From an uncultured Thermococci archaeon (lineage in GTDB: Archaea; Methanobacteriota_B; Thermococci; Methanofastidiosales; B48-G16): a DNA stretch of 64,000 nucleotides. The number at the start of each line of letters is the position of its first letter. Position 1 is the stretch's first letter. The stretch is from NCBI GenBank assembly GCA_964595645.1, contig CAZQQT010000004.1, positions 96,001-160,000 on the forward strand, read 5' to 3'. Both the position numbers and the translations under genes were made by a program. Under the pieces are notes generated by a model. It was not told the origin of the DNA. It did not search any database and saw only the letters and a program-made list of their open reading frames with translations. Positions 41,651-63,057 of the stretch are shown here, in pieces.

Positions 41651-41708
41651 GTGTTATCCATAGTTAATAACACTTTTGTTAATTTGTTGGGAACAAAACA
41701 TTTATATA
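41651..41708 (+). promoter_or_regulatory. Putative AbiEi operator (two adjacent palindromes) plus TATA
   Basis: GTGTTAT-N9-ATAACAC, TTTTGTT-N11-AACAAAA, then TTTATATA. Confidence 0.5.
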
Positions 41709-41729
41709 CTGGAAATACGAAAAGAAATA

Positions 41730-48117: not shown

Positions 48118-48119
48118 CA

Positions 48120-49370
48120 ATGAACATCTCAATTATTGGCACAGGTTACGTTGGGCTCGTGACAGGAGCCTGCCTCGCCAGCCTTGGCCATACCGTGACC
48201 TGCGTGGATATCGTACAGGAAAAAGTAGATCGTATCAATAACAAACAGCCACCTATTTATGAAGGGGGGCTGGAAGAGATATTACAGGAGACGGTGGGAA
48301 CAAGGCTGTCAGCCACCACAGACCTCAAAAAAGCGGTACTTAACTCTGACATCACATTCATCTGTGTGGGGACGCCCTCAAAGGAAGATGGATCCATCGA
48401 TTTGATGTATATAAAAAAAGCCGCAAGGCAAATAGGCACGGCCCTCAAAGAGAAAGAGGAGTACCATCTGGTGGTAGTAAAATCCACCGTTATTCCTGGA
48501 ACAACAGAAAAAATAAAAGAAATTATAGAAAAATCCTCAGGAAACCAACACTTCGGCATCTGTATGAACCCCGAGTTTCTTAGGGAGGGAAAAGCAGTCC
48601 ACGATTTTATGCATCCCGATCGGATTGTAATCGGTGTCGACGAGAAAAAAAGCGGCGATATGCTCGACAAATTGTACAAAAATTTTTCATGCCCAATCCT
48701 CCGCGTTGATATACGAACGGCAGAGATGATAAAGTACACGTCCAACGCGTTTCTCGCAACGAAAATCTCCTTTATCAATGAGATCGGGAATATCTGTAAG
48801 AAATTAGGCATCGACGTGTACGATGTCGCCGAAGGGATGGGGTTAGACACACGGATCTCGCCGAAGTTCTTACGGGCGGGCTGTGGGTTTGGCGGCTCGT
48901 GTTTTCCCAAGGACGTGAAGGCACTGATTGCCAAAGCGATGGAGCTGACCTACGATCCCACGCTCCTCGAAAGTGTGATGAAGGTAAACGAGCGGCAGCC
49001 GCTACAAATGATTGAGCTGCTGAAAAATAAGCTAGGAGATGTAGAAAACAAAAATATCGGCGTACTGGGGCTTGCCTTTAAGCCCGAGAGCGACGATATT
49101 AGAGAGTCCCGTGCGATCCCGATCATTCAGGGGCTAATAGAAGAAAACGCGAATGTCTACGCGTACGATCCAAAAGCAATGGGACACATGAAGGAACGCT
49201 TCCCAGAAGTAAGGTATGAAGACAATGCTCAGTCCGTGATAGACAAAACTGAGGCCGTGTTACTAGTCACAGCATGGCAGGAGTTTAAAAATCTCAACTA
49301 TAACAATAAACTGGTGATCGACGGTAGAAAGATTCTCGAAGGAAACAACTACGAGGGGATATGTTGGTGA
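48120..49370 (+). CDS. ugd: UDP-glucose 6-dehydrogenase (AglM/Ugd)
   Basis: GTGYVG, NPEFLREG, GFGGSCFPKD. Confidence 0.95.
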   Translation: MNISIIGTGYVGLVTGACLASLGHTVTCVDIVQEKVDRINNKQPPIYEGGLEEILQETVGTRLSATTDLKKAVLNSDITFICVGTPSKEDGSIDLMYIKKAARQIGTALKEKEEYHLVVVKSTVIPGTTEKIKEIIEKSSGNQHFGICMNPEFLREGKAVHDFMHPDRIVIGVDEKKSGDMLDKLYKNFSCPILRVDIRTAEMIKYTSNAFLATKISFINEIGNICKKLGIDVYDVAEGMGLDTRISPKFLRAGCGFGGSCFPKDVKALIAKAMELTYDPTLLESVMKVNERQPLQMIELLKNKLGDVENKNIGVLGLAFKPESDDIRESRAIPIIQGLIEENANVYAYDPKAMGHMKERFPEVRYEDNAQSVIDKTEAVLLVTAWQEFKNLNYNNKLVIDGRKILEGNNYEGICW

Positions 49371-49374
49371 TCAC

Positions 49375-50154
49375 ATGGTGAAGAAAGGAGTAATTCTCGC
49401 GGCTGGCGAGGGAACACGGCTGCGGCCTATCACGAAAGCGATTCCGAAGGAGATGATTCGAGTCGGAAAAAAACCGACGATAGGGCACGTGGTTGAAGTA
49501 CTACGGCATGGGGGGGTAGAGGAAGTGTTGGTGATCGTGGGAAGAAAGAAACACGCCATCATCGATTATCTGGGATCAGGGGATGAGTTTGGTATCGATG
49601 TGTACTATCGAGTCCAAGAAGAACCGAAGGGTACGGCCCACGCCACTGCCCTAGCCGAAACGTTCATCGATCACGACGACTTTGCCCTGATCTATGGGGA
49701 CAACTACATCTCGCCGTACAACGTGATGAAAGAAATTGTTGCTTTTCATAAGCAAAAAAACGGTGCGGGGACTTTGGTCTTGAACCCTGTCAACGATCCT
49801 CGCCGTTTTGGGGTGGTAAACCTCGATGATGAGAACAAAGTACGTGGAATCATAGAGAAACCCACCTTGAAAGAGGCCCAACCGTACAAACGGAACGATC
49901 ACTGGCTGAATATCGCTGGGTTGATGATACTCTCATCCAAGATATTTACGTATATACGAAAAGTGGAGCCGGGGAAAAACAACGAACTCTGGCTCACAGA
50001 CGCCATTGAGCTGATGAGAAAGAATAAAAATGACCTCTACGGCTATATCTATAAAGGGAAACGGTACGATATCGGGACCTTTGAGTCGCTGAAAAAAGCT
50101 GATGAGCTTGAGTTAGAAAGAAGAAAGGAAAATTCTAAAAACAAGAAAGAATAG
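49375..50154 (+). CDS. Sugar-1-phosphate nucleotidyltransferase (AglF/RfbA-like)
   Basis: LAAGEGTRLRP.T...PK, EKP, DIG. Confidence 0.9.
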   Translation: MVKKGVILAAGEGTRLRPITKAIPKEMIRVGKKPTIGHVVEVLRHGGVEEVLVIVGRKKHAIIDYLGSGDEFGIDVYYRVQEEPKGTAHATALAETFIDHDDFALIYGDNYISPYNVMKEIVAFHKQKNGAGTLVLNPVNDPRRFGVVNLDDENKVRGIIEKPTLKEAQPYKRNDHWLNIAGLMILSSKIFTYIRKVEPGKNNELWLTDAIELMRKNKNDLYGYIYKGKRYDIGTFESLKKADELELERRKENSKNKKE

Positions 50155-50165
50155 GTGCTGAAAAT

Positions 50166-51131
50166 ATGACAACAACACTTGTCACTGGTTCTGCGGGTTT
50201 TATTGGGTTCCATGTTGCGAGAGCTTTATTGGAGAAAGACGAACAAGTTGTAGGGATCGATAATGTAAACGATTATTATTCTCAGAGATTGAAGTGGGAT
50301 AGGAATTCAATATTGGAAGAATGCAATGAGTACAAGTTTTATCATGAGGATCTTTGTGATTTGAACAAATTGGAAAATATTTTTGACAAACATAGTATAG
50401 ATAGGATATGTCATCTCGCTGCGCAGGCAGGCGTACGCTACTCTGTAGAAAATCCTCACGCATATCAGAAGTCCAATTTGGAAGGATTTACTAATGTGTT
50501 GGAGATGGCAAGATATAGTGATGTAAAGAATTTTGTGTATGCTTCTTCTTCCTCCGTGTATGGCGGCAATGAAAAGATTCCTTATTCGGTCGAGGATGAC
50601 GTTACAAAACCTGTCTCGTATTACGCTGCTACAAAGGTTGCGAACGAGGTAATGGCTCATTCGTACAGTCATCTGTACGATCTACCCTGCACAGGGCTAC
50701 GGTTCTTCACTGTCTATGGACCGTGGGGGAGACCAGACATGGCTTTGTTCAAATTCACGGACAGGATCGTAAATGGAAAATCCATTGACGTGTACAACTA
50801 CGGTGATATGAAAAGGGATTTTACCTATATCGACGATATTGTAGAAGGTGTTATTTCCTCGCTAAACAAGGCGTTTGATTATGAAATATTTAATCTAGGA
50901 AACAATACTCCTATAGATTTGATGGATTTTATTGGAATGTTAGAAGATACAGTGGGGATGGAAGCTGAGAAGAACATGATGCCGATGCAGCCTGGAGATA
51001 TGAAGATCACCTACGCCGATATTTCAACATCGCAAGAAAAACTGGGGTATGAACCTAAAACTGATTTGAAAGAAGGTACCAAAAAATTTGTAGAGTGGTA
51101 TATGGATTATTATAACGTAAGGTTGAGGTGA
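50166..51131 (+). CDS. UDP-glucuronate 4-epimerase-like SDR
   Basis: HLAAQAGVRYS, YAATK, GPWGRPDMA. Confidence 0.88.
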   Translation: MTTTLVTGSAGFIGFHVARALLEKDEQVVGIDNVNDYYSQRLKWDRNSILEECNEYKFYHEDLCDLNKLENIFDKHSIDRICHLAAQAGVRYSVENPHAYQKSNLEGFTNVLEMARYSDVKNFVYASSSSVYGGNEKIPYSVEDDVTKPVSYYAATKVANEVMAHSYSHLYDLPCTGLRFFTVYGPWGRPDMALFKFTDRIVNGKSIDVYNYGDMKRDFTYIDDIVEGVISSLNKAFDYEIFNLGNNTPIDLMDFIGMLEDTVGMEAEKNMMPMQPGDMKITYADISTSQEKLGYEPKTDLKEGTKKFVEWYMDYYNVRLR

Positions 51132-51134
51132 AAG

Positions 51135-52408
51135 ATGGTATTAAAAATGAAAAAGGAAATAGAAAGAGGCGAAGCTACAGTGTGCATAGTTGGGCTGGGC
51201 TATGTCGGGTTACCCCTCGCGGAGGCATTCTCCAATCACATAAGAACTATAGGAATAGATATAGATAAGAATAAGCTAAAAACTATAGAAAAAAATAATA
51301 AAAATTTAATCTGTACCTCGGATCCTTCACTGATAAAACAAGCAGATTTTATAATTATCACGGTACCAACACCAATAACGCAATCGAAAGAACCGGATTT
51401 ATCCTATGTAAAATCTGCAGCAACGACGGTAGGAAAAAATCTCAAAAAAGGTGCAACGGTGGTATTGGAATCGACCGTGTACCCTGGTGTAACTGAAGAA
51501 ATCGTTGTTCCTATTTTGGAGTGTGAATCGGGACTTGTATGTGGAAAGGACTTTAAAGTCGGATATTCTCCCGAAAGAATTAACCCTGGCGATGAAGATC
51601 ATACCTTAGACAAAATTACAAAAATCGTAGCAGGGATCGATGAAGACACAACGGAAACGCTAGCTGAACTATATGGGCTGATTACCGATGTCTATAAAGC
51701 TAAGGACATTAAAACAGCGGAAGCGGCAAAGGTGATGAGAATATCCAACGAGAATTGAATATTGCGTTGATGAATGAGTTCTCTCTCATATTCGACAAAA
51801 TGGGCTTAGATACAGATGCCGTGTTGGATGCTGCAGCGACAAAATGGAATTTTCATTGATATAGCCCTGGACTTGTAGGAGGGCATTGTATCCCTGTAGA
51901 TCCGTATTATCTAGTATATAAAGCGAAGGAAATTGATCACCGTCCCCAGCAGCTGATCCTCGCGGGTCGTTCCATCAACGATAACATACCCAACCACGTG
52001 GCGGACATGACTATCAAGGATCTGAACGAAACGGGTAAAGTGATCAAGGATTCTAAGGTCATCGTGATGGATCTTACCTATAAAGAGAATGTAGCTGATA
52101 CGAGGAAGTCTCCAGCTAAGGATCTGATAAAAGAGCTGAAGGCCTTCGATATCGATGTTTACGGCTACGATCCTCTACTGAGTGGGGAGGAAATCAAAAC
52201 CTTTGATGTGAAACCCTTGAGCAACATCAATAATCTAGATTTTGATGTGGACAGCTTTGTTTTCACTGTTTCACACAATGAGTTCAAAGATATATCAATA
52301 AATAACTTGAAAGCTTTGACTAATACTAACCTGTTGCTCATCGATGTACGAGGAATATTTTCGAAAGATGAGTCTGAAAAAAATGGGTTCATCTATAGAA
52401 CACTGTAG
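51135..52408 (+). pseudogene. UDP-N-acetylhexosamine 6-dehydrogenase (WbpO/WecC-like) pseudogene
   Basis: GLGYVG, SPERINPG; 1-nt loss near 51736 (V-I-ENIQR); TGA at 51857-51859 before PGLVGGHCIPVDP. Confidence 0.88.
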
Positions 52409-52696: not shown

Positions 52697-54142
52697 GTGA
52701 CTCTTAAGCAAACCGTTAAGGACATAGGCATAATCGGAATCTCAAAGATGCTACTTTCAGTAGCAGGGATAATTTTAATCCCTTTTTTGACCAAGATCCT
52801 GGGCGAACACGATTATGGTTTGTGGGTACAGGTAAGTGCAACAATAGGCATTTTAAACCCCATCATCAGAATGGGGTTGCCCTATGCCACTGTGCGCATA
52901 TTCCCTTCAAAAGATGATATCAAAGAGATCGGTAAGGATTTCTCTGCGATAACTTTCCTTGTTCTAACCACTTCTATCTTCGCTTCCACATTGATATTTT
53001 TATTCCCTTCAATACTGGCAAATACAATATTTGAAGGACGTATTATAATCGTACAAATCCTAGCCGTATTTTTGTTCGTCCGTTCTATGGATGAACTGTT
53101 CATAACTGTATTTAGAGCTTTTAGAGAGATGAGAACCTATGCCATTTTGGAAGTGACCACCAGATATTCCGAAATAGCTCTTGCAGTGTCTTTGGTTATA
53201 ATGGGTTACGGCCTGATCGGAGCAGTACTCGCATTGGTATTTGTGAGAGGTTTATTGTTTATTGTTCTCACGATTTTAGTATCAAGAAAGTTAAAATTTA
53301 CAAGACCTAAATTCTCCAGAACGAAGGAATATCTAAACTTTGGAATACCTCTAATACCTTCCGATCTTTCAGTATGGTTGGTTAGCACTAGTGATAGACT
53401 TCTGATAGGTTTCTTTTTGGGTGCTACCTTTGTTGGTTATTATACTCCTGGCTACATGTTAGGGATGGCAATACCTGCAATGTTCACTGGAGTTCTCGTT
53501 TTTGTTTTAACGCCTGCCTTTTCAGAATATTACGAAAATAATGATTTGTCAACTATCTATGTGATAACAAGCTATTCGGTGAAGTTCTTTTTGATTATCT
53601 CTTCTCTTTATTTTATAGGTGTACTACTCTTCGGAAGACGTATTCTTGAAATATTTGCAACCCCTGCAATTGCAGAAAACGGTTACATCATAATTATTTT
53701 TACATCTATTACGGGTTTCTTTATGGGTATTTACACGCTTTTTTCAAGATATATAATATTAAAAAATCGAACAAAATTAATAGCGAGTTTTTGGATGATC
53801 GCAAGTTTCGTGAATATTTCAGGAAATATTTTGTTAATCCCACGCATCGGTATAATCGGTGCTGCAATTACAACCGTTATATCCTACTTCATACTGGTTA
53901 CATTAGCTTTAAACTTTGCATTGAAAAACTTTGATATCACAATAAAACTAGATTATATTCCAAAATTGGTTGTTTCTTCTTTTCTTACCTCGATATTCAT
54001 CTTTTTTTTAATCAATTATCTAACAATAACACCCATATACATCGACATCGTTTTGGGTTCGGGTTTTTATCTATTATCCGTTTTGATTTTTAAAATATTA
54101 AAAAAAGAAGAAATTACTTTCGTTAAGAGTATAATAGGATAA
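52697..54142 (+). CDS. Polysaccharide flippase (Wzx/AglR-like)
   Basis: LTKILG..DYG, DRLLIG.FLG...VGYY, LIP.IGIIGAA. Confidence 0.9.
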   Translation: MTLKQTVKDIGIIGISKMLLSVAGIILIPFLTKILGEHDYGLWVQVSATIGILNPIIRMGLPYATVRIFPSKDDIKEIGKDFSAITFLVLTTSIFASTLIFLFPSILANTIFEGRIIIVQILAVFLFVRSMDELFITVFRAFREMRTYAILEVTTRYSEIALAVSLVIMGYGLIGAVLALVFVRGLLFIVLTILVSRKLKFTRPKFSRTKEYLNFGIPLIPSDLSVWLVSTSDRLLIGFFLGATFVGYYTPGYMLGMAIPAMFTGVLVFVLTPAFSEYYENNDLSTIYVITSYSVKFFLIISSLYFIGVLLFGRRILEIFATPAIAENGYIIIIFTSITGFFMGIYTLFSRYIILKNRTKLIASFWMIASFVNISGNILLIPRIGIIGAAITTVISYFILVTLALNFALKNFDITIKLDYIPKLVVSSFLTSIFIFFLINYLTITPIYIDIVLGSGFYLLSVLIFKILKKEEITFVKSIIG

Positions 54143-54171
54143 TGAGATAAATTCATATCATTTTTTGATAA

Positions 54172-55317
54172 TTAAGCAATCACGTTTTTAAAAATTAAAA
54201 CTATATCTGATTGGTTTAATACAATAGGATTGTTTTTCAAACGTTCCATATTTACTCTAGATACAAAATCATCTAATCGAATATTTTCACAAATATTCCC
54301 TAAATATGGTTCCAAACCTATCTCGTTCATCATTCGGCCGATGAAGTTTAATGCCTCTACAGGAGATGAACCATCCATCAACGAATATAACTCTGATATA
54401 ATCTCCTGATAATAATCCGTACCCCTTTTGTCTATCAGTTTATCAATATTTTCTCCATTATACTTCAAAAACTCCTTCATCATTATCGCAACTGCATGCC
54501 CATGTGGTATACCACATTTAGAGGTGATTACGTAGGAACATGCATGAGGGGCTGTAGTCTTTGAGATGTTAATAGCCTTTCCGGAAAGATTAGCTCCCTG
54601 TAACATGTTTTTTCTAGCTGCTAAATCATCTGGTTTTTCATACGCTCGGGATATGTTTTCGAGTATCAATTCAATAGCTTTTTTTGCATATTCTTTAGAT
54701 TCTTCTGTCGAGTTAACACTCCAATATGATTCAATGCCCTGGCATAAAGCATCCATGCCTGTACAAGCTGTTTGATACTTAGGTAAAGTTAACGTTAATT
54801 TAGGATCCAAGACCACATAATCCGGCAATATATATTCATGAGCAACCGAATATTTTTTCCCATCCATGTAAACCACAGCAAAATGCGTAGCCTCGCTACC
54901 CGTTCCAGCAGTGGTTGGAACAGCTAGAAAGGGTAACCCGTTGGACTCGATACTTTTTTCCTTCAAAACATATTTTTCTGGATTAGACTCTTGGAAAGAA
55001 AATATGTTGATCAACTTAGCAACATCAATGGCACTCCCTCCACCTACAGCCATAACTAAATCATTATCGTTTTTATTAAATTGTTCTACCCCATTTTTTA
55101 TCTCTTCAATTTTAGGATTCGAAGAATAATCTGTGAACTCGTCGAATTCAACATCCATCTCATCTTTGATTTTTTCTAACTCCTCTTTAGCTCCATTCAT
55201 CGAAAAGGATTTTTCACCATGAACTAGAAAAACTTTTTCAGCTTCTAAGTCATCCAAAACAACTCTAGTTTTTTCGATTGCTCCATCCTCAAAGAATTCT
55301 TTAACCATATCAATCAC
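54172..55317 (-). CDS. Phosphonoacetaldehyde reductase (Fe-dependent ADH, PhpC/FomC-like)
   Basis: GGGSAID, PTTAGTGSEATHFAVVY, DALCQGIES, SKTTAPHA, PHGHAV; follows ppd in operon. Confidence 0.88.
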   Translation of the reverse strand: MIDMVKEFFEDGAIEKTRVVLDDLEAEKVFLVHGEKSFSMNGAKEELEKIKDEMDVEFDEFTDYSSNPKIEEIKNGVEQFNKNDNDLVMAVGGGSAIDVAKLINIFSFQESNPEKYVLKEKSIESNGLPFLAVPTTAGTGSEATHFAVVYMDGKKYSVAHEYILPDYVVLDPKLTLTLPKYQTACTGMDALCQGIESYWSVNSTEESKEYAKKAIELILENISRAYEKPDDLAARKNMLQGANLSGKAINISKTTAPHACSYVITSKCGIPHGHAVAIMMKEFLKYNGENIDKLIDKRGTDYYQEIISELYSLMDGSSPVEALNFIGRMMNEIGLEPYLGNICENIRLDDFVSRVNMERLKNNPIVLNQSDIVLIFKNVIA

Positions 55318-56020
55318 CTAAAAAACTTTTAGCCTTTTTCAAATCAGGTTCAGTATCTATCTCCATGCAGAAAAGATCAGAAAAATCAACACTTTGTATC
55401 TTTAATTTTTCTTTTTTCAATAAGGGATTCAAAGCGTTTTCAGCGTACACCCCTTTTTTTCCATCTTCTACAAAACTTTCCATGGACCCCATCCATCTTT
55501 TAAAATCTTCATTTTTCAAAAAATAAAATGGCATAAAACCTACTTTTCCATCTATATCTACACCTATCTCTTTTACAAATCCATCTTCTATACAAGCATT
55601 GAAATCTTTTTTTAATGATTCGTCATGATTCACGAGTCCACGGCTATACTTATCATCATATAACAGTAAATCTAAAATCCTTTTTTCGAATACTAAATCG
55701 CCGTGTAGTAACAAAATATCTTCAGGCCCGATCAATTCCTTTGCCAGATAGAGAGAATAGATATAATTTGTAGATTTGTATTCTAGATTGTGTACGTATT
55801 CGATTTTTAACTCGTTATAAACTTCTTCAACATGTTCTTTTAGTTTATCTTCAAAGGGTCCTGTTGTTATGACAATCTCCTTGATACCTTTCTCCGAAAG
55901 CAATCTTAGCTGCCTAGACAATATAGTTTCATCATTTAATTCCACCATGCATTTAGGCTTGTCATCGGTATAGTGCCCCATCCTCTTACCTTCACCTGAA
56001 TTAAGGATTATAGCCTTCAT
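55310..56020 (-). CDS. Phosphocholine/phosphonate cytidylyltransferase (LicC/PntC-like)
   Basis: ILNSGEGKRM..T...PKC, TNYIYSL, HGDL, EIDT..DL. Confidence 0.85.
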   Translation of the reverse strand: MKAIILNSGEGKRMGHYTDDKPKCMVELNDETILSRQLRLLSEKGIKEIVITTGPFEDKLKEHVEEVYNELKIEYVHNLEYKSTNYIYSLYLAKELIGPEDILLLHGDLVFEKRILDLLLYDDKYSRGLVNHDESLKKDFNACIEDGFVKEIGVDIDGKVGFMPFYFLKNEDFKRWMGSMESFVEDGKKGVYAENALNPLLKKEKLKIQSVDFSDLFCMEIDTEPDLKKAKSFLGD

Positions 56021-56029
56021 GGTCTCACT

Positions 56030-57166
56030 TTAATCCTGCAAAAAATCCATGAACATCTCTTTTCTTTCTATCGGTCCGATATCTGGCCTACCTAAATCTT
56101 TTCTAGCACCTTTTTTAACTCTAACTTCAAGAAGAGCTGGTCCTTTTGTTTTCAACAACTCCTTAATTTTCTCATCTACTTCCGATGGAGTGTTAGCTTT
56201 CATTACTTTGTTATATCCCGCTCCTTCAGCAATCTTTTGGAAATCTACAACTGGAGCAGCTGTAGGCTGACCACCTACAGAATCGTGGGCACAGTTATTT
56301 AGTATTACATGTTTAAGATTGACTGCATCATTCAAGCTTATTGTAGATAAAACTCCCATGTGCATGATCAAAGAACCGTCACCTTCAATGCATATAACCT
56401 GTTTATCTTCATTTCTTAAAGCTATCCCTAAAGCTATCTGTGAGGCGTGTCCCATCGAACCGACCATCAAAAAATCTTTCTCATGTCCTTGGTTCAATCT
56501 TCCACGTACTTCGTAAAGCTCCCTAGATATCTTACCTGTGGAAGAAACCACAAGATTTTCTCCAGTCTTCCATTCAATATTTTTTATAATCTTCTCGATC
56601 GCTTCTTCCCTAGTAATATCACAACTGATATTTTCATCCTGTTCTAAAGTATATTCTAAGAAAGTTCCTCTCTTAACAACTAATGCTCGAGGTTTTTTAT
56701 CGTCTTTCATATCCTTAACAATCTCTTCGACCAAAGCTTTAGCTTCTGATATCTTTTCAGGCAAAACAAAGTTGGGTATATCCATAGTATCCAACAGATC
56801 TCTAGTGACTTTCCCTTGTTTGATGTGCTGACAGGTATCTTTCTTACCTGGTTCACCTCTCCATCCTATCATCAAAAGAACAGGTATATTGTACACTTCT
56901 TCATCTACCAAAGACAACAGCGGATTAGTAGCATTTCCCATACCAGAATTTTGCATGTAGACCAGTGGAATTTTTCCTGTGGACAAGTAATACCCCGACG
57001 CTACACCAATTGCATTACCTTCATTCGCAGCGATAATATGATTTCCTTTAGATACGTTATCTGTGACATAGGCACAAAAACACTTCAGTAATGAATCAGG
57101 AACTCCAGTAAAAAACTCTACATCATTATCAATCAATGTAGAGAAAAATTCTCCAGGATCTAACAT
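56030..57166 (-). CDS. aepY: Phosphonopyruvate decarboxylase
   Basis: FTGVPDSLL, ANEG.A, YMQNSG.GN, GWRGEPG, VGSMGH, GDGS, DSVGGQPT, LGRP. Confidence 0.95.
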   Translation of the reverse strand: MLDPGEFFSTLIDNDVEFFTGVPDSLLKCFCAYVTDNVSKGNHIIAANEGNAIGVASGYYLSTGKIPLVYMQNSGMGNATNPLLSLVDEEVYNIPVLLMIGWRGEPGKKDTCQHIKQGKVTRDLLDTMDIPNFVLPEKISEAKALVEEIVKDMKDDKKPRALVVKRGTFLEYTLEQDENISCDITREEAIEKIIKNIEWKTGENLVVSSTGKISRELYEVRGRLNQGHEKDFLMVGSMGHASQIALGIALRNEDKQVICIEGDGSLIMHMGVLSTISLNDAVNLKHVILNNCAHDSVGGQPTAAPVVDFQKIAEGAGYNKVMKANTPSEVDEKIKELLKTKGPALLEVRVKKGARKDLGRPDIGPIERKEMFMDFLQD

Positions 57167-58468
57167 CTATTTCCCTCCAGGTATAAGAGTTAAGATGTCT
57201 CTTATACCCATACAGTACTTTTCGTCTGCTTCCTTAGCTCGATTGTGCTCCAAGATACTTTCAGCAGCTTTCTTCATAGCTGGATATGCACTACGCAGGA
57301 GATGATTGGCATAAATAACCACATTTGCTCCGGCTTCTATCAACTCTTCTTCGGTTATTTGACAATACGTGGTTGGAACCACGACAACTGGAACCTTATA
57401 CTCAAAATCTTCATACTCGTCAAAGAACGCTAAGATATCATCTGGATCATCGTCTTTGCTGTGGATCATTACAGCATCTACACCAGCATCTATGTAAGCC
57501 TCAGCCCGCTCCAAGGCATCATCTAATCCAGCATCAAGTATCAAGCTTTCTATACGAGCTATTATCATGAAATCATCAGTGACCTGTGCTTTTTTACCTT
57601 CTGATATTTTCCTCGTAAAGTTTTCTATAGTATCCTGTTTTTGCTCCACTTCTGTACCGAATAAGGAATTTCTCTTCAATCCTATCTTATCCTCTATTAT
57701 CACGGCAGAAACGCCTATTCTCTCTAGGGTTTTAACTGTGTAAACAAAATGTTCGACTTTACCGCCTGTATCCCCATCCAATATTATCGTTTTGGTCGTA
57801 ACCTCCAAGATCTCATTAATCGTATTGATCCGTGAAGTTTCATCGACTAACTCAATGTCAGGTTTTCCTTTCACTGTAGAATCACATAAACTACTTACCC
57901 ACATCCCATCGAAGCTTTCTATTTTATCCTCTTTAGGGAATTTTGTTTTCTCGGCTATCAACCCAGTTAATCCGTTATGAGCTTCTATGATGCGAACGAT
58001 GTCTTTTTTTTCTATAAGCTTTCTAAGCTTCTTCCTTCTTTCATCTGGCGTTGTTCCCAATTCTTCAATCTTTTCATCCAATTTATCTAGCGAAACATCT
58101 TTCGTATATTCAACTTCGACTAGTTCTCCTCCCCATTCCTCTAAAGTTTCTATAACTTTTTCCCTAATTTTTTGTTGAGGTCCAGTCTTCCAATCTTCTC
58201 CATGGACTACATAATCCGGCTTTAGCTCTTTCAATGTAGGGGTATAATCAAGTTCTTCTTGCCTAACTACGTTTTCAACGCCTTTGATATTTTCTATCAC
58301 TTTTTTGCGTTGATCGTACTCTAATAGAGGATAACGCTTATAGCTAGCCATTACTTCATCCGTCAAGATTCCTACTGTTACTTCCCCTAACTCCCTAGCC
58401 TTTTCTATCACGTTTATGTGGCCATGATGTATTATATCCGTTCCTATCGTAAGATAGACTTTTTTCAT
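57167..58468 (-). CDS. pepM: Phosphoenolpyruvate mutase with N-terminal HxGH cytidylyltransferase domain (Fom1-like)
   Basis: PepM signature EDKIGLKRNS (EDKx5NS), DGDTGG, IARIES; N-terminal HHGH and VHGEDW. Confidence 0.96.
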   Translation of the reverse strand: MKKVYLTIGTDIIHHGHINVIEKARELGEVTVGILTDEVMASYKRYPLLEYDQRKKVIENIKGVENVVRQEELDYTPTLKELKPDYVVHGEDWKTGPQQKIREKVIETLEEWGGELVEVEYTKDVSLDKLDEKIEELGTTPDERRKKLRKLIEKKDIVRIIEAHNGLTGLIAEKTKFPKEDKIESFDGMWVSSLCDSTVKGKPDIELVDETSRINTINEILEVTTKTIILDGDTGGKVEHFVYTVKTLERIGVSAVIIEDKIGLKRNSLFGTEVEQKQDTIENFTRKISEGKKAQVTDDFMIIARIESLILDAGLDDALERAEAYIDAGVDAVMIHSKDDDPDDILAFFDEYEDFEYKVPVVVVPTTYCQITEEELIEAGANVVIYANHLLRSAYPAMKKAAESILEHNRAKEADEKYCMGIRDILTLIPGGK

Positions 58469-58504
58469 TTTTTACCTCCTTTTATTTAATTAGACTATTA
58501 CTCT

Positions 58505-59197
58505 CTAATCAATTATTGATTCATCATCTTTATAATAAATATAATCTTTTTTAGGTGTTTTCCAGTCTTTACCATATCTATATTCGAGATATTCTTCCAC
58601 AGGACTAGGAATATTGAATTTTATACCGTAAAATTGTATTGTAGATAACTCATTAAAATATTTTGCAGGTATTGAGATGAAAATTTTAGATGACAACATA
58701 TCATGGATTTTATTTAGACTTTTAATCATTTTCCTTCTGATTTCCGGAGAAAATTTGGAAAAAAAGTGTCCCATAGCGTTAGTTAGAAAAAAGGGATATC
58801 TTATTTTAATAAATTTAGCACTTCTTTTATCTTCAACTAAATGTCTAATATAATTAATCATTGGTCCAACATAATAATCATTTACTTTCCAAAAGGTAGT
58901 TGCAGTATCATCTTTTTTATCATACAATGTTATATCGATTCTAATATCTTCATAATAAATATGTATGTGTTTTGAATAAATAACTAAATAATCACTAGGA
59001 AGTTGGTGGAGAGCCTTTTTTACTTCATTATAATTGTCACTCCAACTTCCTAAGTCAATATCATTATCCCCTTCTATTATCTTTCCATCTCTAACTGCAC
59101 CAAGTAATGTTCCAGAATCCAACCAGAAACATATATCTTCCTTATCCAAAAGCGTTCCAATTCTTTTCAAGATTTTTGAAGCTTTTTTTCCTTCCAT
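58505..59197 (-). CDS. licD: LicD family phosphotransferase
   Basis: WLDSGTLLGAVRDG...D.DID, YLEYRYG.DW..P. Confidence 0.9.
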   Translation of the reverse strand: MEGKKASKILKRIGTLLDKEDICFWLDSGTLLGAVRDGKIIEGDNDIDLGSWSDNYNEVKKALHQLPSDYLVIYSKHIHIYYEDIRIDITLYDKKDDTATTFWKVNDYYVGPMINYIRHLVEDKRSAKFIKIRYPFFLTNAMGHFFSKFSPEIRRKMIKSLNKIHDMLSSKIFISIPAKYFNELSTIQFYGIKFNIPSPVEEYLEYRYGKDWKTPKKDYIYYKDDESIID

Positions 59198-59227
59198 TCT
59201 GAATCACGTTATATAGAGGATTTATTA

Positions 59228-61006
59228 TTACGAATTCATTTTTTCAATTTTATAGGTGTAATAAAATTCATTGTCGTATACCCTATTTACTGAAGAATCA
59301 TTATTTAATTTATTATATGTTGTTTCATTAAAAAACCAGTCTTCTTCATAATCCGTAAATACTTCATAAAATAATATGCGCGTTACATCAGTATGAGTGA
59401 TATATCCAGAAAAGTTTTCTCCTACCGTCTCATGTTCCTTATATCCAAAATGTTGTGGCATTTCTTTTTCTTGTTGGCTTTGAATTCTATCCGGAACAGA
59501 ATACCTTCCATAAATAAGATGTCCCATCCTTTCTCTATCTGTCCCAAAACTCCAAATTGATTCATTCCCTTTGCTGTTTTCTAAAAACCATTCTGATCCG
59601 ACTACTTCTTGCAAAGAAACTTGATTATTAGCCTCTTTGGATATAGAGGAAGGATGTACACTAAAAACAGAAATCACTATAATAATAAAAATTAAAATAG
59701 TCAATATTATTGTTTTGGTCAATCTATTTTGAAAACTAAAGTTTATTATTATTGTGCTGATAAATATAGAAAAAAATGTAAACCATTTAAAAAGCCTATA
59801 AAAATGTACAAAATCAACAAAAAAATTCATTCCGGACCAAACTACAAAAGTTAGAAAAGATAAAATAAAAAATCCGGACAGATTTTTATTAAAAAAAACG
59901 AAGATAGTACTTTTTCTCTGTTTGACAAGTGTAAATAAGATAATCAATAACGAAAAAAATAACAGAATCATTTCCAAACCAAATCTAAACATTATTATTT
60001 GTATAGCATCTATAACTTTTACATCATACACATTCAAAGCCGCAGTATAGTATACTAAAGCAGGATTAATTGCTTCTTCAATAAATAATGAATATAAAGC
60101 TTTTCTAAATCCATGTTGTATTGTAGGAAATAAAAAATACCAATTAAACCAGAGTGAAAATAAAGCTAATACACCTTTATTTGGCAAATTTCTAAATTGG
60201 TGTTCGTCACTATATTTCAAAAAACTGCTGTGATAAATATAAAGATCGAAAATGATAAGAATTATAAAAATATAAAATGAGGATATTGGATGAGAAAAAA
60301 TCAAACCAACCATCATTATAAAAAAACAAATTAATGTATTCTTTTTCTTTTTTTCTCTGTAAATTTTGATTATTAAATATATAAGTAGAGGAAGAAATAA
60401 AAAAACCATGTTGTTTGGTTTAATATTCAAATGTACCGCCCCAAAAATCAAGAGTATTCCTAGTAAGATAGGATACTTTCTGTTTATATCATTAAAACCG
60501 TGTTTAAAAAGTATATATATCGAAGATGAAAAAAATATGTAAAAAACAATTGAAAAGAATTGAAATATTATAGTTACAGGCATCTTTGTTATCAATGCAA
60601 AATTTGTGGCAAAGACATGTAATCCGGGGTAGTAATTTTGATCGTGGACGAACCCCCTGCCCATTAGATCCTTAATACATCCTATATGAGTTATTATATC
60701 TCCTCTACTGTAAATAAAGTAACCTCTAAAAATCGGTAAGGATATAATTAAAATATTAATATATAAAATTACTCCAACCCCATACAAAAGATATTTCTTA
60801 TCATCTGAATGAATAACTACTAATGAACCAAAAATAAGAGAAATTACTATTAATAACCAAAAGTAATTTGGAAACGCGGAATATATTGATGGTTCATATG
60901 ATTCTACTTGGGGTGTAATAATAAGTATAATATCAATTAGTATTGAAGATATCAGTGCTAACAAAAGAATGAACCGGATGTGAATAGCTTTTAAATTAAT
61001 ACCCAT
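59228..61006 (-). CDS. Large polytopic membrane protein (GT-C/polymerase-like)
   Basis: More than 12 TM; GD...H and NYYPGLH loop; C-terminal ..RVYDN. Confidence 0.65.
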   Translation of the reverse strand: MGINLKAIHIRFILLLALISSILIDIILIITPQVESYEPSIYSAFPNYFWLLIVISLIFGSLVVIHSDDKKYLLYGVGVILYINILIISLPIFRGYFIYSRGDIITHIGCIKDLMGRGFVHDQNYYPGLHVFATNFALITKMPVTIIFQFFSIVFYIFFSSSIYILFKHGFNDINRKYPILLGILLIFGAVHLNIKPNNMVFLFLPLLIYLIIKIYREKKKKNTLICFFIMMVGLIFSHPISSFYIFIILIIFDLYIYHSSFLKYSDEHQFRNLPNKGVLALFSLWFNWYFLFPTIQHGFRKALYSLFIEEAINPALVYYTAALNVYDVKVIDAIQIIMFRFGLEMILLFFSLLIILFTLVKQRKSTIFVFFNKNLSGFFILSFLTFVVWSGMNFFVDFVHFYRLFKWFTFFSIFISTIIINFSFQNRLTKTIILTILIFIIIVISVFSVHPSSISKEANNQVSLQEVVGSEWFLENSKGNESIWSFGTDRERMGHLIYGRYSVPDRIQSQQEKEMPQHFGYKEHETVGENFSGYITHTDVTRILFYEVFTDYEEDWFFNETTYNKLNNDSSVNRVYDNEFYYTYKIEKMNS

Positions 61007-61064
61007 ATATACTCCTCAATTTACCAACTTTTTATAACCTTGAAGTTTTATTTTTAAAACTAAT

Positions 61065-61982
61065 TTATCTAATAAAATCAAACAATTTCTTAAATCGTTC
61101 TTTTCTATAATATTCAATCACATCCGGATCATTAATTCTTTCTTCTTGATTTATAAATGCTTGGAGATACCCAGAAATATGCCCAATACCATATACAGGT
61201 TTAGAAAACATACAAAAGAATATTCTAGCTAATAACATGAGAGGATGATAATATTGAATGTAGGCCCTGTATCCATGAAATTTCCCCATCTCATACATAT
61301 TTTCAAGTGTAGTATTAGTTTCACGAACCAAACACCCCCAAACATCTTCGATGTGAGCAACTTCATAACCATTCATTATAGCTTTAGCATGGATTATATC
61401 CGATGATGCATCCGTGATAGGAAAGCCGCCGATTTCATTAAGAAACGATTTCCTATAAATTCTGATTTCATCAAACGGTTCATCAACTCTATTTTCGCTG
61501 CTGTAAATTACTAAATTTTTATCATTTAGAATTCTTTGAGGTTGCTTTAGGGCTGAAACATCTATACTCTTTTTCAAAGTCATTAAATTTGGACTAGCTA
61601 TAGCTAAATCTGGTCGTTTCTCCATTTCGTTAATTATTCTTTCAAATGTTTCATCATGGAACCTAGCATCCGCATCAGCTTTGGCTAGATATTTAACCCT
61701 ATTAGAAATTTTTAAGGACTTATCAAATCCTGTGCTTAAAACTTTAGCAAAATGTTTTCCGAATGTCCTCTCTGATTTTTCTGACATCCTAAACGAATGT
61801 ATCCAGCCGTATTCAACACATAATTTTTTTAATAGTTCAGGCGTACTGTCAGTACTACCGTCGTCTATTATTACCCATGCTTGAGGTTTTTGCGATTGAT
61901 CTATAACACATTTTGCTAAGTCATTAATGTTTTCTTCTTCATTTTTTACTGGAGAGATTAAATTATAATCTGGGTTGACCAT
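61065..61982 (-). CDS. Glycosyltransferase family 2
   Basis: ISPVKNEE, IDDGSTD, DAD, IGGF. Confidence 0.9.
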   Translation of the reverse strand: MVNPDYNLISPVKNEEENINDLAKCVIDQSQKPQAWVIIDDGSTDSTPELLKKLCVEYGWIHSFRMSEKSERTFGKHFAKVLSTGFDKSLKISNRVKYLAKADADARFHDETFERIINEMEKRPDLAIASPNLMTLKKSIDVSALKQPQRILNDKNLVIYSSENRVDEPFDEIRIYRKSFLNEIGGFPITDASSDIIHAKAIMNGYEVAHIEDVWGCLVRETNTTLENMYEMGKFHGYRAYIQYYHPLMLLARIFFCMFSKPVYGIGHISGYLQAFINQEERINDPDVIEYYRKERFKKLFDFIR

Positions 61983-62064: not shown

Positions 62065-63057
62065 TTATTCTCCAATACTGTCTGTTACAGATTCAAAATT
62101 TTGAACATCATACATAACCATTCCAATATCCTCTTCTTCCAATAAATCAACAGTATGAAGAGATTGTTCTTCATTGACCTCTAAAACCGAACTCAATATT
62201 TTGGCATTAAACCCTAATTCTTCTGCAAAGTTATGTATAGCTTTTACATCTTTTGGGAAGCAACTACCTCCAAAGCCGGCTCCTGCATTCAAAAAATCTC
62301 TGTTGATTCGATGATCTAGGCCTACTCCATCCATCACGTCTATACATCGATTCCGACTTTTTCGCAAATTCTTGATAACTCATTCGCAAATGATATTTTA
62401 GTGGCTAGCAAGGCATTCGAGGCATACTTTATCATCTCTGCAGTCCTTATATCGGTCTTAACCACAGGCGCATCGAAATTTTCATAAGCTTTAGAAACCT
62501 TATTGACCGTTTTTTCATCCCTTCCTCCTATCACTATCCTATCGAGATTTAAGAAGTCATCCAATGCAATGCTACCCCTTCCCGTAAAAATTCAGGATTC
62601 ATACCGAGGCCCAAATCTTCTGCAATCTCTTTCCCGCTCTCTTCTAAAATGGTAGGACTTTTGTGTCAGTGGTAGTTGGAACTACGGTACTCTTAACACA
62701 AATTACATGATAATCATCTTTTTCTGATAAAGCCTTAGAAATATTTTCCGCAGTCTTTTCTACATCACTGGTATCGATACTACCATCTTGTTTAGAAGGA
62801 GTTCCCACACAGATAAAAGTAACATCGGTTTGTTTTATCGCATCTACAGTATCCGTCGTAGCTATCATTTTATCTTCATTAACTACTTCTTTCAATAATT
62901 TGTCTAGCCCCTCTTCGTATATAGGCGGAACTCCCTGATTGATTTTGTCGACTTTTTCTTCATCTATATCTACACAGGTTACTTCATGACCCTTGGATGC
63001 AAATCCAGTTCCTGAAACTAATCCTACGTAACCTGTACCTATTATGCTTATTTTCAT
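62065..63057 (-). pseudogene. Second UDP-glucose dehydrogenase, multiply frameshifted and 3'-truncated
   Basis: GTGYVG..KSTVVP / MNPEFLREG / AEMIKYASN / GFGGSCFPKD separated by frameshifts. Confidence 0.88.

What the first reader, a model, noticed from the sequence alone, without database searches (positions are those of the whole stretch)
52697..61982. Archaeal phosphonoglycan system: PEP to 2-hydroxyethylphosphonate (HEP), CMP activation, LicD transfer
Seen: a co-oriented run GT2 - polytopic membrane protein - licD - CyTase/pepM - ppd - pntC-like - Fe-ADH, whose last four genes abut or overlap, facing a Wzx flippase. All reading frames are intact although neighbouring sugar genes are broken. 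Known: PepM + Ppd + PhpC/FomC-type reductase make HEP; the Fom1 CyTase domain makes HEP-CMP; LicD proteins move phospho-substituents from CDP/CMP donors onto glycans. No AepZ aminotransferase, MpnS, Fom3 or Fom4 is in the window. Inference: this archaeon decorates an S-layer N-glycan or other surface polysaccharide with HEP, a C-P modification resistant to phosphatases. The archaeal phosphonate pathway I know as characterised is the Nitrosopumilus methylphosphonate one, so a HEP-glycan in this lineage may be undescribed.
Basis: partly seen in the sequence, partly recalled or inferred. Interest (0 to 1): 0.88.

Follow-up and report, generated by a model that had tools for sequence, protein, structure and literature searches.

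The report
Archaeal hydroxyethylphosphonate surface-glycan gene cassette
An uncultured archaeon carries an intact gene set, apparently borrowed from soda-lake bacteria, that should make the carbon-phosphorus compound 2-hydroxyethylphosphonate, activate it with CTP and hang it on a cell-surface sugar chain; this kind of system is known from bacteria, so it is a new host rather than a new invention.

Summary
All eight genes are intact at the stated coordinates, and two neighbouring sugar dehydrogenase genes are broken. PepM and Ppd score above NCBI's equivalog cut-offs. The domain fused to PepM is about 53% identical to the Fom1 HEP cytidylyltransferase. The closest solved structure to the Fe-ADH is sulfoacetaldehyde reductase, the reference structure for PhpC. 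LicD keeps its DxD motif. The polytopic membrane protein is a GT-C glycosyltransferase.

The core CyTase-pepM/ppd/NTase/ADH is collinear in soda-lake archaeal contigs and in the cultured bacterium Halanaerobium hydrogeniformans. No other genome of 132 in the host's class has pepM. In the PepM tree the window groups with soda-lake archaeal and metagenome sequences, sister to Halanaerobiales. The cassette is therefore an inter-domain, habitat-bound import, and the contig is not a chimera.

One new detail concerns the LicC-like transferase. It carries His where the AEP enzyme PntC has its amine-binding Glu, and this His form travels with ADH rather than with the AEP aminotransferase.

This is a new member of a known kind. 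The same scan already reported similar cassettes on other DNA (Asgard archaea and several bacteria). The product and the acceptor remain untested.

The parts
52697..54142 (+). Wzx/MOP-family flippase, convergent with the cassette
   Evidence: Pfam Polysacc_synt 2.2e-25 and Polysacc_synt_3 4.1e-24. A MOP flippase also lies beside the cassette in L004, L033 and L061.
54172..55317 (-). Group III metal-dependent alcohol dehydrogenase, predicted phosphonoacetaldehyde reductase (PhpC-type) making HEP
   Evidence: Fe-ADH 2.2e-41 plus ADH_Fe_C. TIGR03405 Phn_Fe-ADH gives 169.9 bits, below the 423.7 cut-off. Best PDB match is 6jko/6jkp at 7.8e-41, with GGGS, the Asp and both His ligands aligned. 6jkp is the sulfoacetaldehyde reductase used as the PhpC structural reference (PMC13576164). 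ADH and class-V aminotransferase are mutually exclusive across related loci.
55310..56020 (-). LicC/PntC-like nucleotidyltransferase, His106 variant; predicted HEP cytidylyltransferase
   Evidence: NTP_transf_3 9.9e-12. PDB matches are LicC 1jyk at 7.5e-12 and Tde-PntC 6pd1 at 3.9e-5. His106 aligns with PntC Glu104. The HGD motif is found in 12 of 12 NTases (11 in ADH-type loci, one on a short unclassified contig); ESD in the NTases of the AEPT-type loci. Of 36 metagenomic HGD-type loci with flanks, 32 carry Fe-ADH.
56030..57166 (-). Phosphonopyruvate decarboxylase (Ppd)
   Evidence: TIGR03297 gives 479.3 bits against a 312.5 cut-off. The TPP motif GDG...NN starts at residue 262.
57167..58468 (-). 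Bifunctional Fom1-like cytidylyltransferase (residues 1-140) fused to PEP mutase (145-433)
   Evidence: TIGR02320 gives 397.9 bits against a 319.55 cut-off. EDKIGLKRNS at residue 259 and HHGH at residue 14. The CyTase domain aligns without gaps to Fom1 CyTase 5x3d at 6e-47, about 53% identity.
58505..59197 (-). LicD-family phosphotransferase with no TM segment; predicted to move the HEP group from CMP-HEP to a sugar hydroxyl
   Evidence: Pfam LicD 48.8 bits against a 22.6 cut-off. Its GDNDIDLG motif aligns with the DYDVDLG motif of FKRP 6kaj. It is the only LicD in the genome. A LicD lies beside the core in L002-L005 and L031-L033.
59228..61006 (-). GT-C fold membrane glycosyltransferase (DUF6541 family)
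   Evidence: AlphaFold2 model has pLDDT 92.7 and pTM 0.93. Foldseek matches STT3, AftA, DPY19, AglB, PglB, Pmt4 and ArnT at probability 1.0 and TM 0.43-0.49. The family has at least 1821 representatives, with invariant E38 in the loop after TM1.
61065..61982 (-). GT2 glycosyltransferase
   Evidence: Glycos_transf_2 5.4e-13. Only weak TuaG/PgaC-type hits in NCBIfam.
62065..63057 (-). Broken UDP-glucose 6-dehydrogenase (neighbour, not part of the pathway)
   Evidence: Two fragments match AglM/NDP-sugar dehydrogenase positions 1-134 and 241-311.
51135..52408 (+). Broken TviB-like NDP-sugar dehydrogenase (neighbour)
   Evidence: Two fragments match TIGR03026 positions 2-210 and 301-412.

Best explanation
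This is a five-gene phosphonate-decoration module, licD - CyTase::pepM - ppd - LicC-like NTase - Fe-ADH. With a GT-C transferase, a GT2 and a facing Wzx flippase, it sits in a roughly 22-kb low-GC surface-glycan island of an uncultured, MCR-less, Theionarchaea-like archaeon. The proposed route runs as follows. PepM converts PEP to phosphonopyruvate. Ppd decarboxylates this irreversibly to phosphonoacetaldehyde. The ADH reduces that to 2-hydroxyethylphosphonate (HEP). A cytidylyltransferase makes CMP-HEP. The soluble LicD then transfers the phosphonyl group onto a sugar hydroxyl of a lipid-linked glycan at the cytoplasmic face. Wzx flips the decorated precursor, and the GT-C enzyme (or AglB, encoded elsewhere) attaches or extends it outside. 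Family memberships, motifs, gene order, distribution and phylogeny are shown here. The chemistry of each step, the division of labour between the two cytidylyltransferases, and the acceptor are inferred. The module was acquired horizontally from a soda-lake gene pool shared with Halanaerobiales bacteria and Thermoplasmata archaea.
For: PepM and Ppd score above their equivalog cut-offs and carry the EDKxxxxxNS and GDG..NN motifs. The CyTase domain is about 53% identical to the Fom1 HEP cytidylyltransferase and aligns without gaps (Fom1 activity as described in PMC6697681). The ADH's best solved relative is sulfoacetaldehyde reductase 6jkp, the PhpC reference structure (PMC13576164). Across about 37 related loci an Fe-ADH or a class-V aminotransferase follows Ppd, never both. 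No AEPT reaches its cut-off in the genome. The LicC-like NTase has His at the PntC Glu104 amine contact. The His form tracks ADH (32 of 36 metagenomic loci) and the Glu form tracks AEPT. LicD keeps the DxD motif and recurs beside the core. The module is collinear in at least five archaeal or soda-lake contigs and in H. hydrogeniformans. Non-synonymous divergence is low while synonymous sites are saturated, which indicates purifying selection. The membrane protein has a GT-C fold. Alg13/Alg14, GalU, a sugar dehydrogenase and epimerase-type genes in the island point to assembly of a lipid-linked glycan. In the tree the window falls in a soda-lake clade (100/97) sister to Halanaerobiales (100/99). 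pepM is absent from the other 132 genomes of the class.
Against: There is no biochemical or NMR evidence. The ADH falls well below the TIGR03405 cut-off (170 against 424 bits), so its substrate rests on context and on a sulfonate analogue. Two cytidylyltransferases for one substrate is unexplained, because the PepM-fused CyTase also occurs in AEP-type loci. No LicD-family enzyme has been shown, in the papers I read, to use a CMP-phosphonate donor. A generic class-V aminotransferase (192 bits) exists elsewhere in the genome. The His/Glu correlation is drawn from related sequences, and the metagenome scan selected for the HGD motif. The neighbouring genes are decaying, so the island may be on its way out.
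Confidence: 0.68

Rival explanations
1. The module makes CMP-HEP, but LicD puts the phosphonate on a membrane lipid (a phosphonolipid head group or glycolipid) rather than on a glycan or glycoprotein.
For: The only NCBIfam model that LicD hits is Mf1, a diacylglycerol cholinephosphotransferase (57.5 bits). Phosphonolipids are a known fate of phosphonates (PMC8942020).
Against: The Mf1 hit is far below its 225-bit cut-off and is the only LicD-family model that matched. The gene lies between glycosyltransferases and beside a Wzx flippase, in an island of nucleotide-sugar genes. LicD has no membrane segment.
Confidence: 0.12
2. The end product is not HEP. Phosphonoacetaldehyde is instead aminated to AEP by an unlinked aminotransferase, or HEP is processed further (for example methylated or oxidised) before transfer, and the ADH has a side role.
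For: A class-V aminotransferase scoring 192 bits against the PhnW-AepZ model exists on contig C6. A B12 radical-SAM gene and a methyltransferase lie in the same island, 4-7 kb past the window end. The PepM-fused CyTase is also found in AEP-type loci.
Against: The aminotransferase is far below its cut-off and is unlinked. The ADH overlaps the NTase gene by 8 nt and is conserved with the core across domains. The radical-SAM enzyme matches HpnJ end to end (369 bits) and matches PhpK-type P-methylases at only 107-108 bits. The NTase lacks the amine-binding Glu.
Confidence: 0.1
3. The cluster makes a free, secreted small-molecule phosphonate (fosfomycin-like natural product), and cytidylylation is only transient.
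For: The first steps (Fom1-like fusion, Ppd, FomC-like ADH) are those of fosfomycin biosynthesis (PMC6697681). In H. hydrogeniformans the core lies next to an ABC exporter and has no LicD.
Against: There is no Fom3-, Fom4- or FomD-type gene. Every ORF of 160 aa or more in the island has another assignment. LicD, Wzx and glycosyltransferases are adjacent in the archaeal loci.
Confidence: 0.05
4. The island is an assembly or binning artefact: bacterial DNA joined to an archaeal contig.
For: The cassette has 35% GC against a genome value of 43%. The nearest cultured relatives of PepM are bacteria.
Against: The island lies at 147-169 kb of a 207-kb contig. Archaeal-type genes lie on both sides: class I ProRS, TIGR00375 and archaeal YchF on the left, and an archaeal KaiC and a GGGP-type prenyltransferase on the right, with paralogous beta-propeller proteins on both flanks. 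Genome contamination is 0.63%. The closest cassettes (80-89% PepM identity) are in a Thermoplasmata MAG, in an unassigned MAG contig that carries an archaeal-type CCA-adding enzyme, and on short soda-lake metagenome contigs.
Confidence: 0.03

Closest known systems
Bacterial phosphonyl-tailoring (Pnt) pathway: Ppm-Ppd-AEPT-PntC with LicD-like transferases (Rice et al. 2019, PMC6697681)
   Same: The logic is the same: make a C-P compound, activate it as a CMP conjugate, and transfer it with a LicD-like enzyme to a surface glycan. The PF01467-Ppm fusion is shared (23.6% of Ppm enzymes). A second, LicC-like NTase one or two genes away is also shared, an arrangement the paper notes.
   Different: The branch enzyme here is an Fe-ADH (giving HEP) rather than AEPT (giving AEP). 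The LicC-like NTase has His where Tde-PntC has the amine-contacting Glu104. The host is an archaeon. A GT-C enzyme and Wzx are adjacent.
Early fosfomycin steps in Streptomyces wedmorensis: Fom1 (CyTase-PepM), Fom2 (Ppd), FomC (PnAA reductase)
   Same: The fusion architecture is the same, and the CyTase domain is about 53% identical to the solved Fom1 domain (5x3d). The Ppd and Fe-ADH steps, and the predicted CMP-HEP intermediate, are also the same.
   Different: There are no Fom3, Fom4 or FomD genes. An extra LicC-like NTase and a LicD are present. The genes sit in a glycan island, not in an antibiotic cluster.
HEP-bearing exopolysaccharide of Stackebrandtia nassauensis (and Glycomyces), cited in PMC8942020 as one of only two PhpC-type gene cluster families with an isolated product
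   Same: The predicted product class is the same: HEP conjugated to a polysaccharide.
   Different: Those organisms are actinobacteria, and I did not compare gene content here. No archaeal product has been isolated.
Nitrosopumilus maritimus methylphosphonate cluster (as described in PMC8942020 and PMC9381506)
   Same: It is an archaeal PepM-Ppd-PhpC route through HEP, with sugar and LicD-type neighbours, and is thought to decorate exopolysaccharide.
   Different: That pathway continues to methylphosphonate via MpnS, an O2-dependent step. No such gene lies in this island, and this host is a different, probably anaerobic, lineage.
Streptococcus pneumoniae Lic pathway (LicC, LicD1/2, flippase TacF); from my own knowledge apart from LicC, which is covered in PMC6697681
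   Same: A LicC-type cytidylyltransferase, a cytoplasmic LicD transfer onto a lipid-linked glycan, and then a Wzx-type flippase.
   Different: The donor there is CDP-choline (a phosphate ester). The donor predicted here is a CMP-phosphonate.

Membership tests
PEP mutase (TIGR02320) | Score above the equivalog cut-off | tested here: met
   397.9 bits against 319.55; 399.3 bits in the genome search.
PEP mutase (TIGR02320) | Ppm-specific EDKxxxxxNS motif (PMC6697681) | tested here: met
   EDKIGLKRNS at residue 259.
Phosphonopyruvate decarboxylase (TIGR03297) | Score above the cut-off, and the TPP-binding GDG...NN motif | tested here: met
   479.3 bits against 312.5; motif at residue 262.
Fom1-type HEP cytidylyltransferase domain (PF01467 fused N-terminally to Ppm) | Domain architecture, HxGH motif and close similarity to the characterised domain | tested here: met
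   PF01467 at 11-104 plus PEP_mutase at 148-406. HHGH at residue 14. Match to 5x3d at 6e-47, 133 aligned residues without gaps, about 53% identity.
Fom1-type HEP cytidylyltransferase domain | Catalyses CTP + HEP -> CMP-HEP | not testable with these tools
   Needs an enzyme assay. The same fused domain also occurs in AEPT-type loci, so its specificity is uncertain.
PhpC-type phosphonoacetaldehyde reductase (PF00465; NCBIfam TIGR03405) | Member of PF00465 with NAD(P) motif and metal ligands | tested here: met
   Fe-ADH 2.2e-41. GGGS at residue 92. The Asp and two His align with 6jko, with Gln at the +4 position in both proteins.
PhpC-type phosphonoacetaldehyde reductase (PF00465; NCBIfam TIGR03405) | Score above the TIGR03405 cut-off | tested here: not met
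   169.9 bits against 423.7. PhpC-type enzymes are reported to be very divergent (PMC13576164), so this only weakens the assignment.
PhpC-type phosphonoacetaldehyde reductase | Genomic coupling to pepM-ppd as the branch-point enzyme, in place of AEPT | tested here: met
   The ADH overlaps the NTase gene by 8 nt. ADH or class-V aminotransferase, never both, across the related loci.
PntC (AEP-specific LicC-like cytidylyltransferase, PMC6697681) | PF12804/LicC-like fold encoded next to ppm | tested here: met
   NTP_transf_3 9.9e-12; LicC 1jyk at 7.5e-12 and Tde-PntC 6pd1 at 3.9e-5.
PntC (AEP-specific LicC-like cytidylyltransferase, PMC6697681) | Acidic residue contacting the AEP amine (Tde-PntC Glu104; LicC Asp105) | tested here: not met
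   His106 aligns with Glu104. It is therefore not filed as an AEP-type PntC. It belongs to an HGD subfamily that travels with ADH.
LicD family (PF04991) | Pfam score above the gathering threshold, and a conserved DxD motif | tested here: met
   48.8 bits against 22.6. The DNDID motif aligns with the DYDVD motif of FKRP 6kaj.
LicD family (PF04991) | Transfers the phospho or phosphonyl moiety from a CDP/CMP donor to a glycan | not testable with these tools
   Needs an assay with CMP-HEP and an acceptor.
GT-C glycosyltransferases | GT-C fold with an acidic residue in the first extracytoplasmic loop | tested here: met
   About 30 GT-C structures matched at Foldseek probability 0.97 or higher. Invariant E38 lies in the loop after TM1.
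AglB/STT3 oligosaccharyltransferase | Sequence membership of PF02516 | tested here: not met
   The membrane protein matches no STT3 Pfam model. The genome's two STT3 homologues are on contigs C2 and C6.
Fosfomycin biosynthesis | Fom3-type B12 radical-SAM methylase, Fom4 epoxidase and FomD hydrolase | tested here: not met
   The only B12 radical-SAM gene in the island is HpnJ-like (369 bits), against 107-108 bits to P-methylase models. No unassigned ORF of 160 aa or more remains in the island.
Methylphosphonate pathway (MpnS) | MpnS/HEPD-type dioxygenase next to pepM-ppd-phpC | tested here: inconclusive
   No unassigned ORF of suitable size lies in the island. I ran no MpnS model against the genome.

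The most novel reading that the evidence does not exclude
The LicC-like enzyme represents an unrecognised, widespread subfamily of phosphonate cytidylyltransferases, specific for HEP and defined by a Glu-to-His change at the amine-contact site of PntC. The PepM-fused CyTase would then have a different, branch-independent job. Through this module, soda-lake archaea of at least two classes would carry HEP phosphonate esters on their surface glycans, a trait passed between bacteria and archaea within one habitat.
Probability: 0.35. Interest if true: 0.6.

Novelty: new member of a known kind. Interest (0 to 1): 0.45.

Why it matters
Phosphonate decoration of cell surfaces is well documented genomically in bacteria. 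In the literature I could search, its description in archaea is limited to marine ammonia oxidisers. This locus shows that the bacterial HEP-type tailoring module works as a portable unit that has crossed the domain boundary inside one extreme habitat (soda-lake sediments), and that it plugs into archaeal lipid-linked glycan machinery. If the product is real, it adds a phosphatase-resistant, negatively charged C-P group to an archaeal envelope at high pH and salt, and it adds archaea to the sources of HEP esters in sediments. The His/Glu signature gives a simple sequence rule for predicting HEP or AEP activation. It also sharpens an open question left by Rice et al. 2019: why many clusters carry two cytidylyltransferases. 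H. hydrogeniformans, which is cultured and carries the same four-gene core, offers a direct experimental handle.

Tried and rejected
1. Fom3 idea. A B12 radical-SAM gene lies 4.7 kb beyond the window, but it is HpnJ-like and not a P- or C-methylase of the Fom3/PhpK type. Rejected as part of the phosphonate route.

2. Synteny with the same-genus genome G005, to define the insertion site. DNA identity is too low, and only a 0.5-kb stretch matched. That stretch has no Rfam family.

3. A first attempt at the left-flank DNA search failed because the query was one base too long. I did not repeat it.

I did it through handles instead.

5. A mixed HEP-type/AEP-type NTase alignment had no stretch conserved enough for a metagenome scan. 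I used the HEP-type alignment only, so that scan tests only one direction of the association, and the HGD motif is there partly by construction.

6. dN/dS could not be computed for most pairs because synonymous sites are saturated.

7. The word-index protein search found only 8 relatives of the membrane protein. The exhaustive search found 1821.

8. Not tried: residue-level comparison of the second PntC contact (Glu196), prediction of the NTase or LicD structures, a complex prediction, and a test for MpnS in the genome.

Full report
OBSERVATION. The gene run is real and lies at the coordinates given. ORF listing, Pfam and NCBIfam give the following. A Wzx/MOP flippase is at 52697-54142 (+). 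On the minus strand, in transcription order, lie GT2 (61065-61982), a 592-aa polytopic membrane protein (59228-61006), LicD (58505-59197), a cytidylyltransferase-PEP mutase fusion (57167-58468), phosphonopyruvate decarboxylase (56030-57166), a LicC-like nucleotidyltransferase (55310-56020) and an iron-type alcohol dehydrogenase (54172-55317). PepM and Ppd abut. Ppd and the NTase are 9 nt apart. The NTase and the ADH overlap by 8 nt. The ADH and Wzx stops are 29 nt apart. Two neighbouring nucleotide-sugar dehydrogenase genes are in pieces: 51135-51758 with 51998-52408, and 62644-63057 with 62065-62367. Every cassette protein spans its family model.

THE ENZYMES. PepM (397.9 bits against a 319.55 cut-off) and Ppd (479.3 against 312.5) are equivalog-level matches. 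They carry the Ppm-specific EDKxxxxxNS motif and the TPP motif. The N-terminal 140 residues of the PepM protein align without a gap, at about 53% identity, to the solved cytidylyltransferase domain of Fom1 (5x3d, E 6e-47). Fom1 is the enzyme that makes CMP-HEP from CTP and HEP (as summarised in PMC6697681).

The ADH is a group III dehydrogenase. It reaches only 170 bits against NCBI's phosphonate Fe-ADH model, whose cut-off is 424. Its best solved relative is 6jko/6jkp. A 2026 study of PhpC enzymes identifies 6jkp as sulfoacetaldehyde reductase and uses it as the structural reference for PhpC (PMC13576164). Sulfoacetaldehyde is the sulfonate twin of phosphonoacetaldehyde.

LicD passes its Pfam threshold. 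It keeps the DxD motif that aligns with fukutin-related protein. It has no hydrophobic segment, and it is the only LicD in the genome.

The membrane protein was of unknown function (DUF6541). An exhaustive search found at least 1821 full-length relatives. An AlphaFold2 model built on 80 of them reached pLDDT 92.7. Foldseek matched about thirty GT-C glycosyltransferases (STT3, AglB, PglB, AftA, DPY19, Pmt4, ArnT) at probability 0.97-1.0. An invariant Glu sits in the loop after the first helix. It is not AglB, because the genome's two STT3 genes lie on other contigs.

HEP RATHER THAN AEP. No aminoethylphosphonate transaminase reaches its cut-off anywhere in this 99.96%-complete genome. I compared about 37 loci that encode related CyTase-PepM proteins. 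They came from bacteria, Thermoplasmata, DPANN and Asgard archaea. In these loci Ppd is followed either by an Fe-ADH or by a class-V aminotransferase, never both. This is the branch-point logic used by Li and Horsman (PMC8942020), who put HEP-type neighbourhoods at 8.5% of all ppm neighbourhoods.

TWO CYTIDYLYLTRANSFERASES. Rice et al. already noted clusters with a Ppm-fused NTase and a second NTase nearby (PMC6697681). They showed that the LicC-like PntC of Treponema denticola contacts the amine of AEP through Glu104 and Glu196. In the alignment to that structure (6pd1), the window's enzyme has His106 at the Glu104 position.

HGD is found in 12 of 12 LicC-like NTases: 11 encoded in ADH-type loci (archaeal and bacterial, 41-66% identical) plus one on a short unclassified contig. 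The NTases in aminotransferase-type loci, most of them fused to the aminotransferase, have ESD like Tde-PntC. Other blocks differ as well: ILNSG against ILAAG, and TNYIYS against TGSM.

A metagenome scan seeded with the HGD-type alignment found at least 467 relatives. Of 36 loci with at least 1.5 kb on both sides, 32 carry an Fe-ADH and one carries a class-V aminotransferase. The scan selected for the motif and the sequences are related, so this is supportive rather than proof. My reading is that the LicC-like gene is the branch-specific, HEP-type cytidylyltransferase. What the branch-independent fused CyTase adds is open: redundancy, a second donor, or channelling.

ORIGIN. The window is C4:96001-160000 of a 1.97-Mb, 14-contig genome. 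ProRS on the left flank is closest to Theionarchaea among named sequences. There is no McrA. The size pattern of the class (133 species, one genus with 62) suggests GTDB Thermococci, which is an inference. pepM is absent from the other 33 genomes of the order and from the other 132 of the class.

The nearest PepM sequences (80-89%) are on Kulunda-steppe soda-lake sediment contigs, including a Thermoplasmata MAG (sample names checked in PMC6704655). Next come Halanaerobium hydrogeniformans and Natroniella at 76%. A maximum-likelihood tree puts the window in a soda-lake clade (ultrafast bootstrap/SH-aLRT 100/97). That clade is sister to Halanaerobiales (100/99), followed by Dethiobacter alkaliphilus (88/91). 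Archaea are never monophyletic, and at least five or six switches between the domains are needed.

The four-gene core is collinear in H. hydrogeniformans, where transposases flank it. The archaeal and soda-lake contigs add one or two LicD genes and often a MOP flippase. LicD diverges fastest (28-46% identity), as expected if it follows the acceptor. Synonymous sites are saturated while dN is small, so the genes are under purifying selection and the transfer is not very recent. In every other genome the cassette's GC content matches its surroundings. Here it is 35%, inside a 27-38% GC island, in a 43% GC genome.

NOT A CHIMERA. The island occupies about 147-169 kb of a 207-kb contig. On the left are an archaeal/eukaryal-type ProRS, TIGR00375 and an archaeal YchF. 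On the right are an archaeal KaiC-domain protein and a GGGP-type prenyltransferase. Paralogous beta-propeller proteins occur on both sides. AbiE toxin-antitoxin pairs bracket the glycan region.

CONTEXT BEYOND THE WINDOW. The island continues for about 9 kb past the window end. It holds GalU, an Alg13/Alg14 pair, a methyltransferase, a PF01663 alkaline-phosphatase-type enzyme, an HpnJ-like B12 radical-SAM enzyme and another GT2. The left arm (47197-52408) holds an epimerase/dehydratase-family protein, a UDP-glucose dehydrogenase, a sugar-1-phosphate NTase and a GalE-like epimerase. This is the toolkit for a lipid-linked oligosaccharide. It fits a model in which soluble LicD decorates the precursor in the cytoplasm, Wzx flips it, and a GT-C enzyme acts outside. 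The model parallels the pneumococcal LicC/LicD/TacF logic (my own knowledge).

COMPARISON AND NOVELTY. The system works like the bacterial Pnt pathway with the HEP branch. It shares its first steps with fosfomycin biosynthesis but lacks Fom3, Fom4 and FomD. HEP-bearing polysaccharide has been isolated from Stackebrandtia, and the only archaeal product known is the Nitrosopumilus methylphosphonate conjugate (PMC8942020). Marine surveys list pepM/aepY/phpC with LicD-type neighbours in Thaumarchaeota (PMC9381506). I found no paper describing this cassette in Theionarchaea-like, Thermoplasmata, DPANN or Asgard archaea.

The cassette is not unique in archaea. Of 401 sampled genomes of the class that holds the soda-lake Thermoplasmata MAG, 14 have PepM, and about half of these have the ADH. 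This scan had already reported similar cassettes on other DNA (Asgard archaea, a gammaproteobacterium, Omnitrophota). I therefore rate it a new member of a known kind. Two modest additions are the His-variant cytidylyltransferase signature and the habitat-bound inter-domain transfer. Product, donor specificity and acceptor are untested.

Noticed in passing
L030:6662-8098 (- strand) = G000:C4:164662-166098, 4.7 kb past the window end: A 478-aa B12-binding radical-SAM protein matches the hopanoid enzyme HpnJ end to end (369 bits, below the 578 cut-off). It sits between a GT2 and a PF01663 alkaline-phosphatase-type protein in the same archaeal glycan island. It may rearrange or methylate a sugar. 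An HpnJ relative in an archaeal glycan locus is odd.
   Followed up: partly
window 41676-43222 and L030:9597-11050 (C4:167597-169050): AbiEi/AbiEii-type toxin-antitoxin genes lie on both sides of the roughly 25-kb glycan region: a full AbiEii/AbiEi pair on the right, and an AbiEi homologue with an adjacent unassigned ORF on the left. They could mark or stabilise a mobile island.
   Followed up: no
L031 and L032 (soda-lake metagenome contigs Ga0207421_10010706 and SL_8KL_010_SEDDRAFT_10006827): The closest relatives of the cassette carry two different LicD genes, one on each side of the four-gene core. This suggests two acceptor sites or two donors, which may relate to the two cytidylyltransferases.
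   Followed up: no
L034 (Halanaerobium hydrogeniformans CP002304, 40937-62238): In this cultured bacterium the same four-gene core is flanked by transposase and integrase genes. It lies beside an ABC exporter and has no LicD within 10 kb, so the fate of the phosphonate there may differ.
   Followed up: no
L053, L058 (Thermoplasmata) and L020 (Lachnospiraceae): These loci encode 668-673-aa triple fusions of LicC-like NTase, CyTase and PepM, followed by an Fe-ADH. This shows that both nucleotidyltransferases belong functionally to the HEP route.
   Followed up: partly
L074-L153 (metagenome contigs): The HGD-type LicC-like NTase is abundant in metagenomes (at least 467 relatives in one capped scan), among them contigs labelled human gut. 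HEP-type tailoring may therefore be common in anaerobic communities.
   Followed up: partly
L030:15794-16319 (C4:173794-174319): This is the only stretch of the right flank conserved at DNA level in the same-genus and same-family genomes (66-79% identity). It has no Rfam match and no long ORF, so it may be a small conserved gene or an unclassified RNA.
   Followed up: partly
L030:5076-6641 (C4:163076-164641) and L002:4220-5494: A PF01663 (type I phosphodiesterase/AlkP-superfamily) protein lies in the glycan island here, and one also lies 4.5 kb from the cassette in the Thermoplasmata MAG, next to a sulfotransferase. It could process phosphonate or phosphate esters, or act as a transferase.
   Followed up: no
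window 59228-61006: On the evidence from this member, Pfam DUF6541 can be assigned to the GT-C glycosyltransferase superfamily. Invariant residues in 80 relatives are E38, Y42, R94, D103, Y126, H130, P206, H239 and R404.
   Followed up: yes
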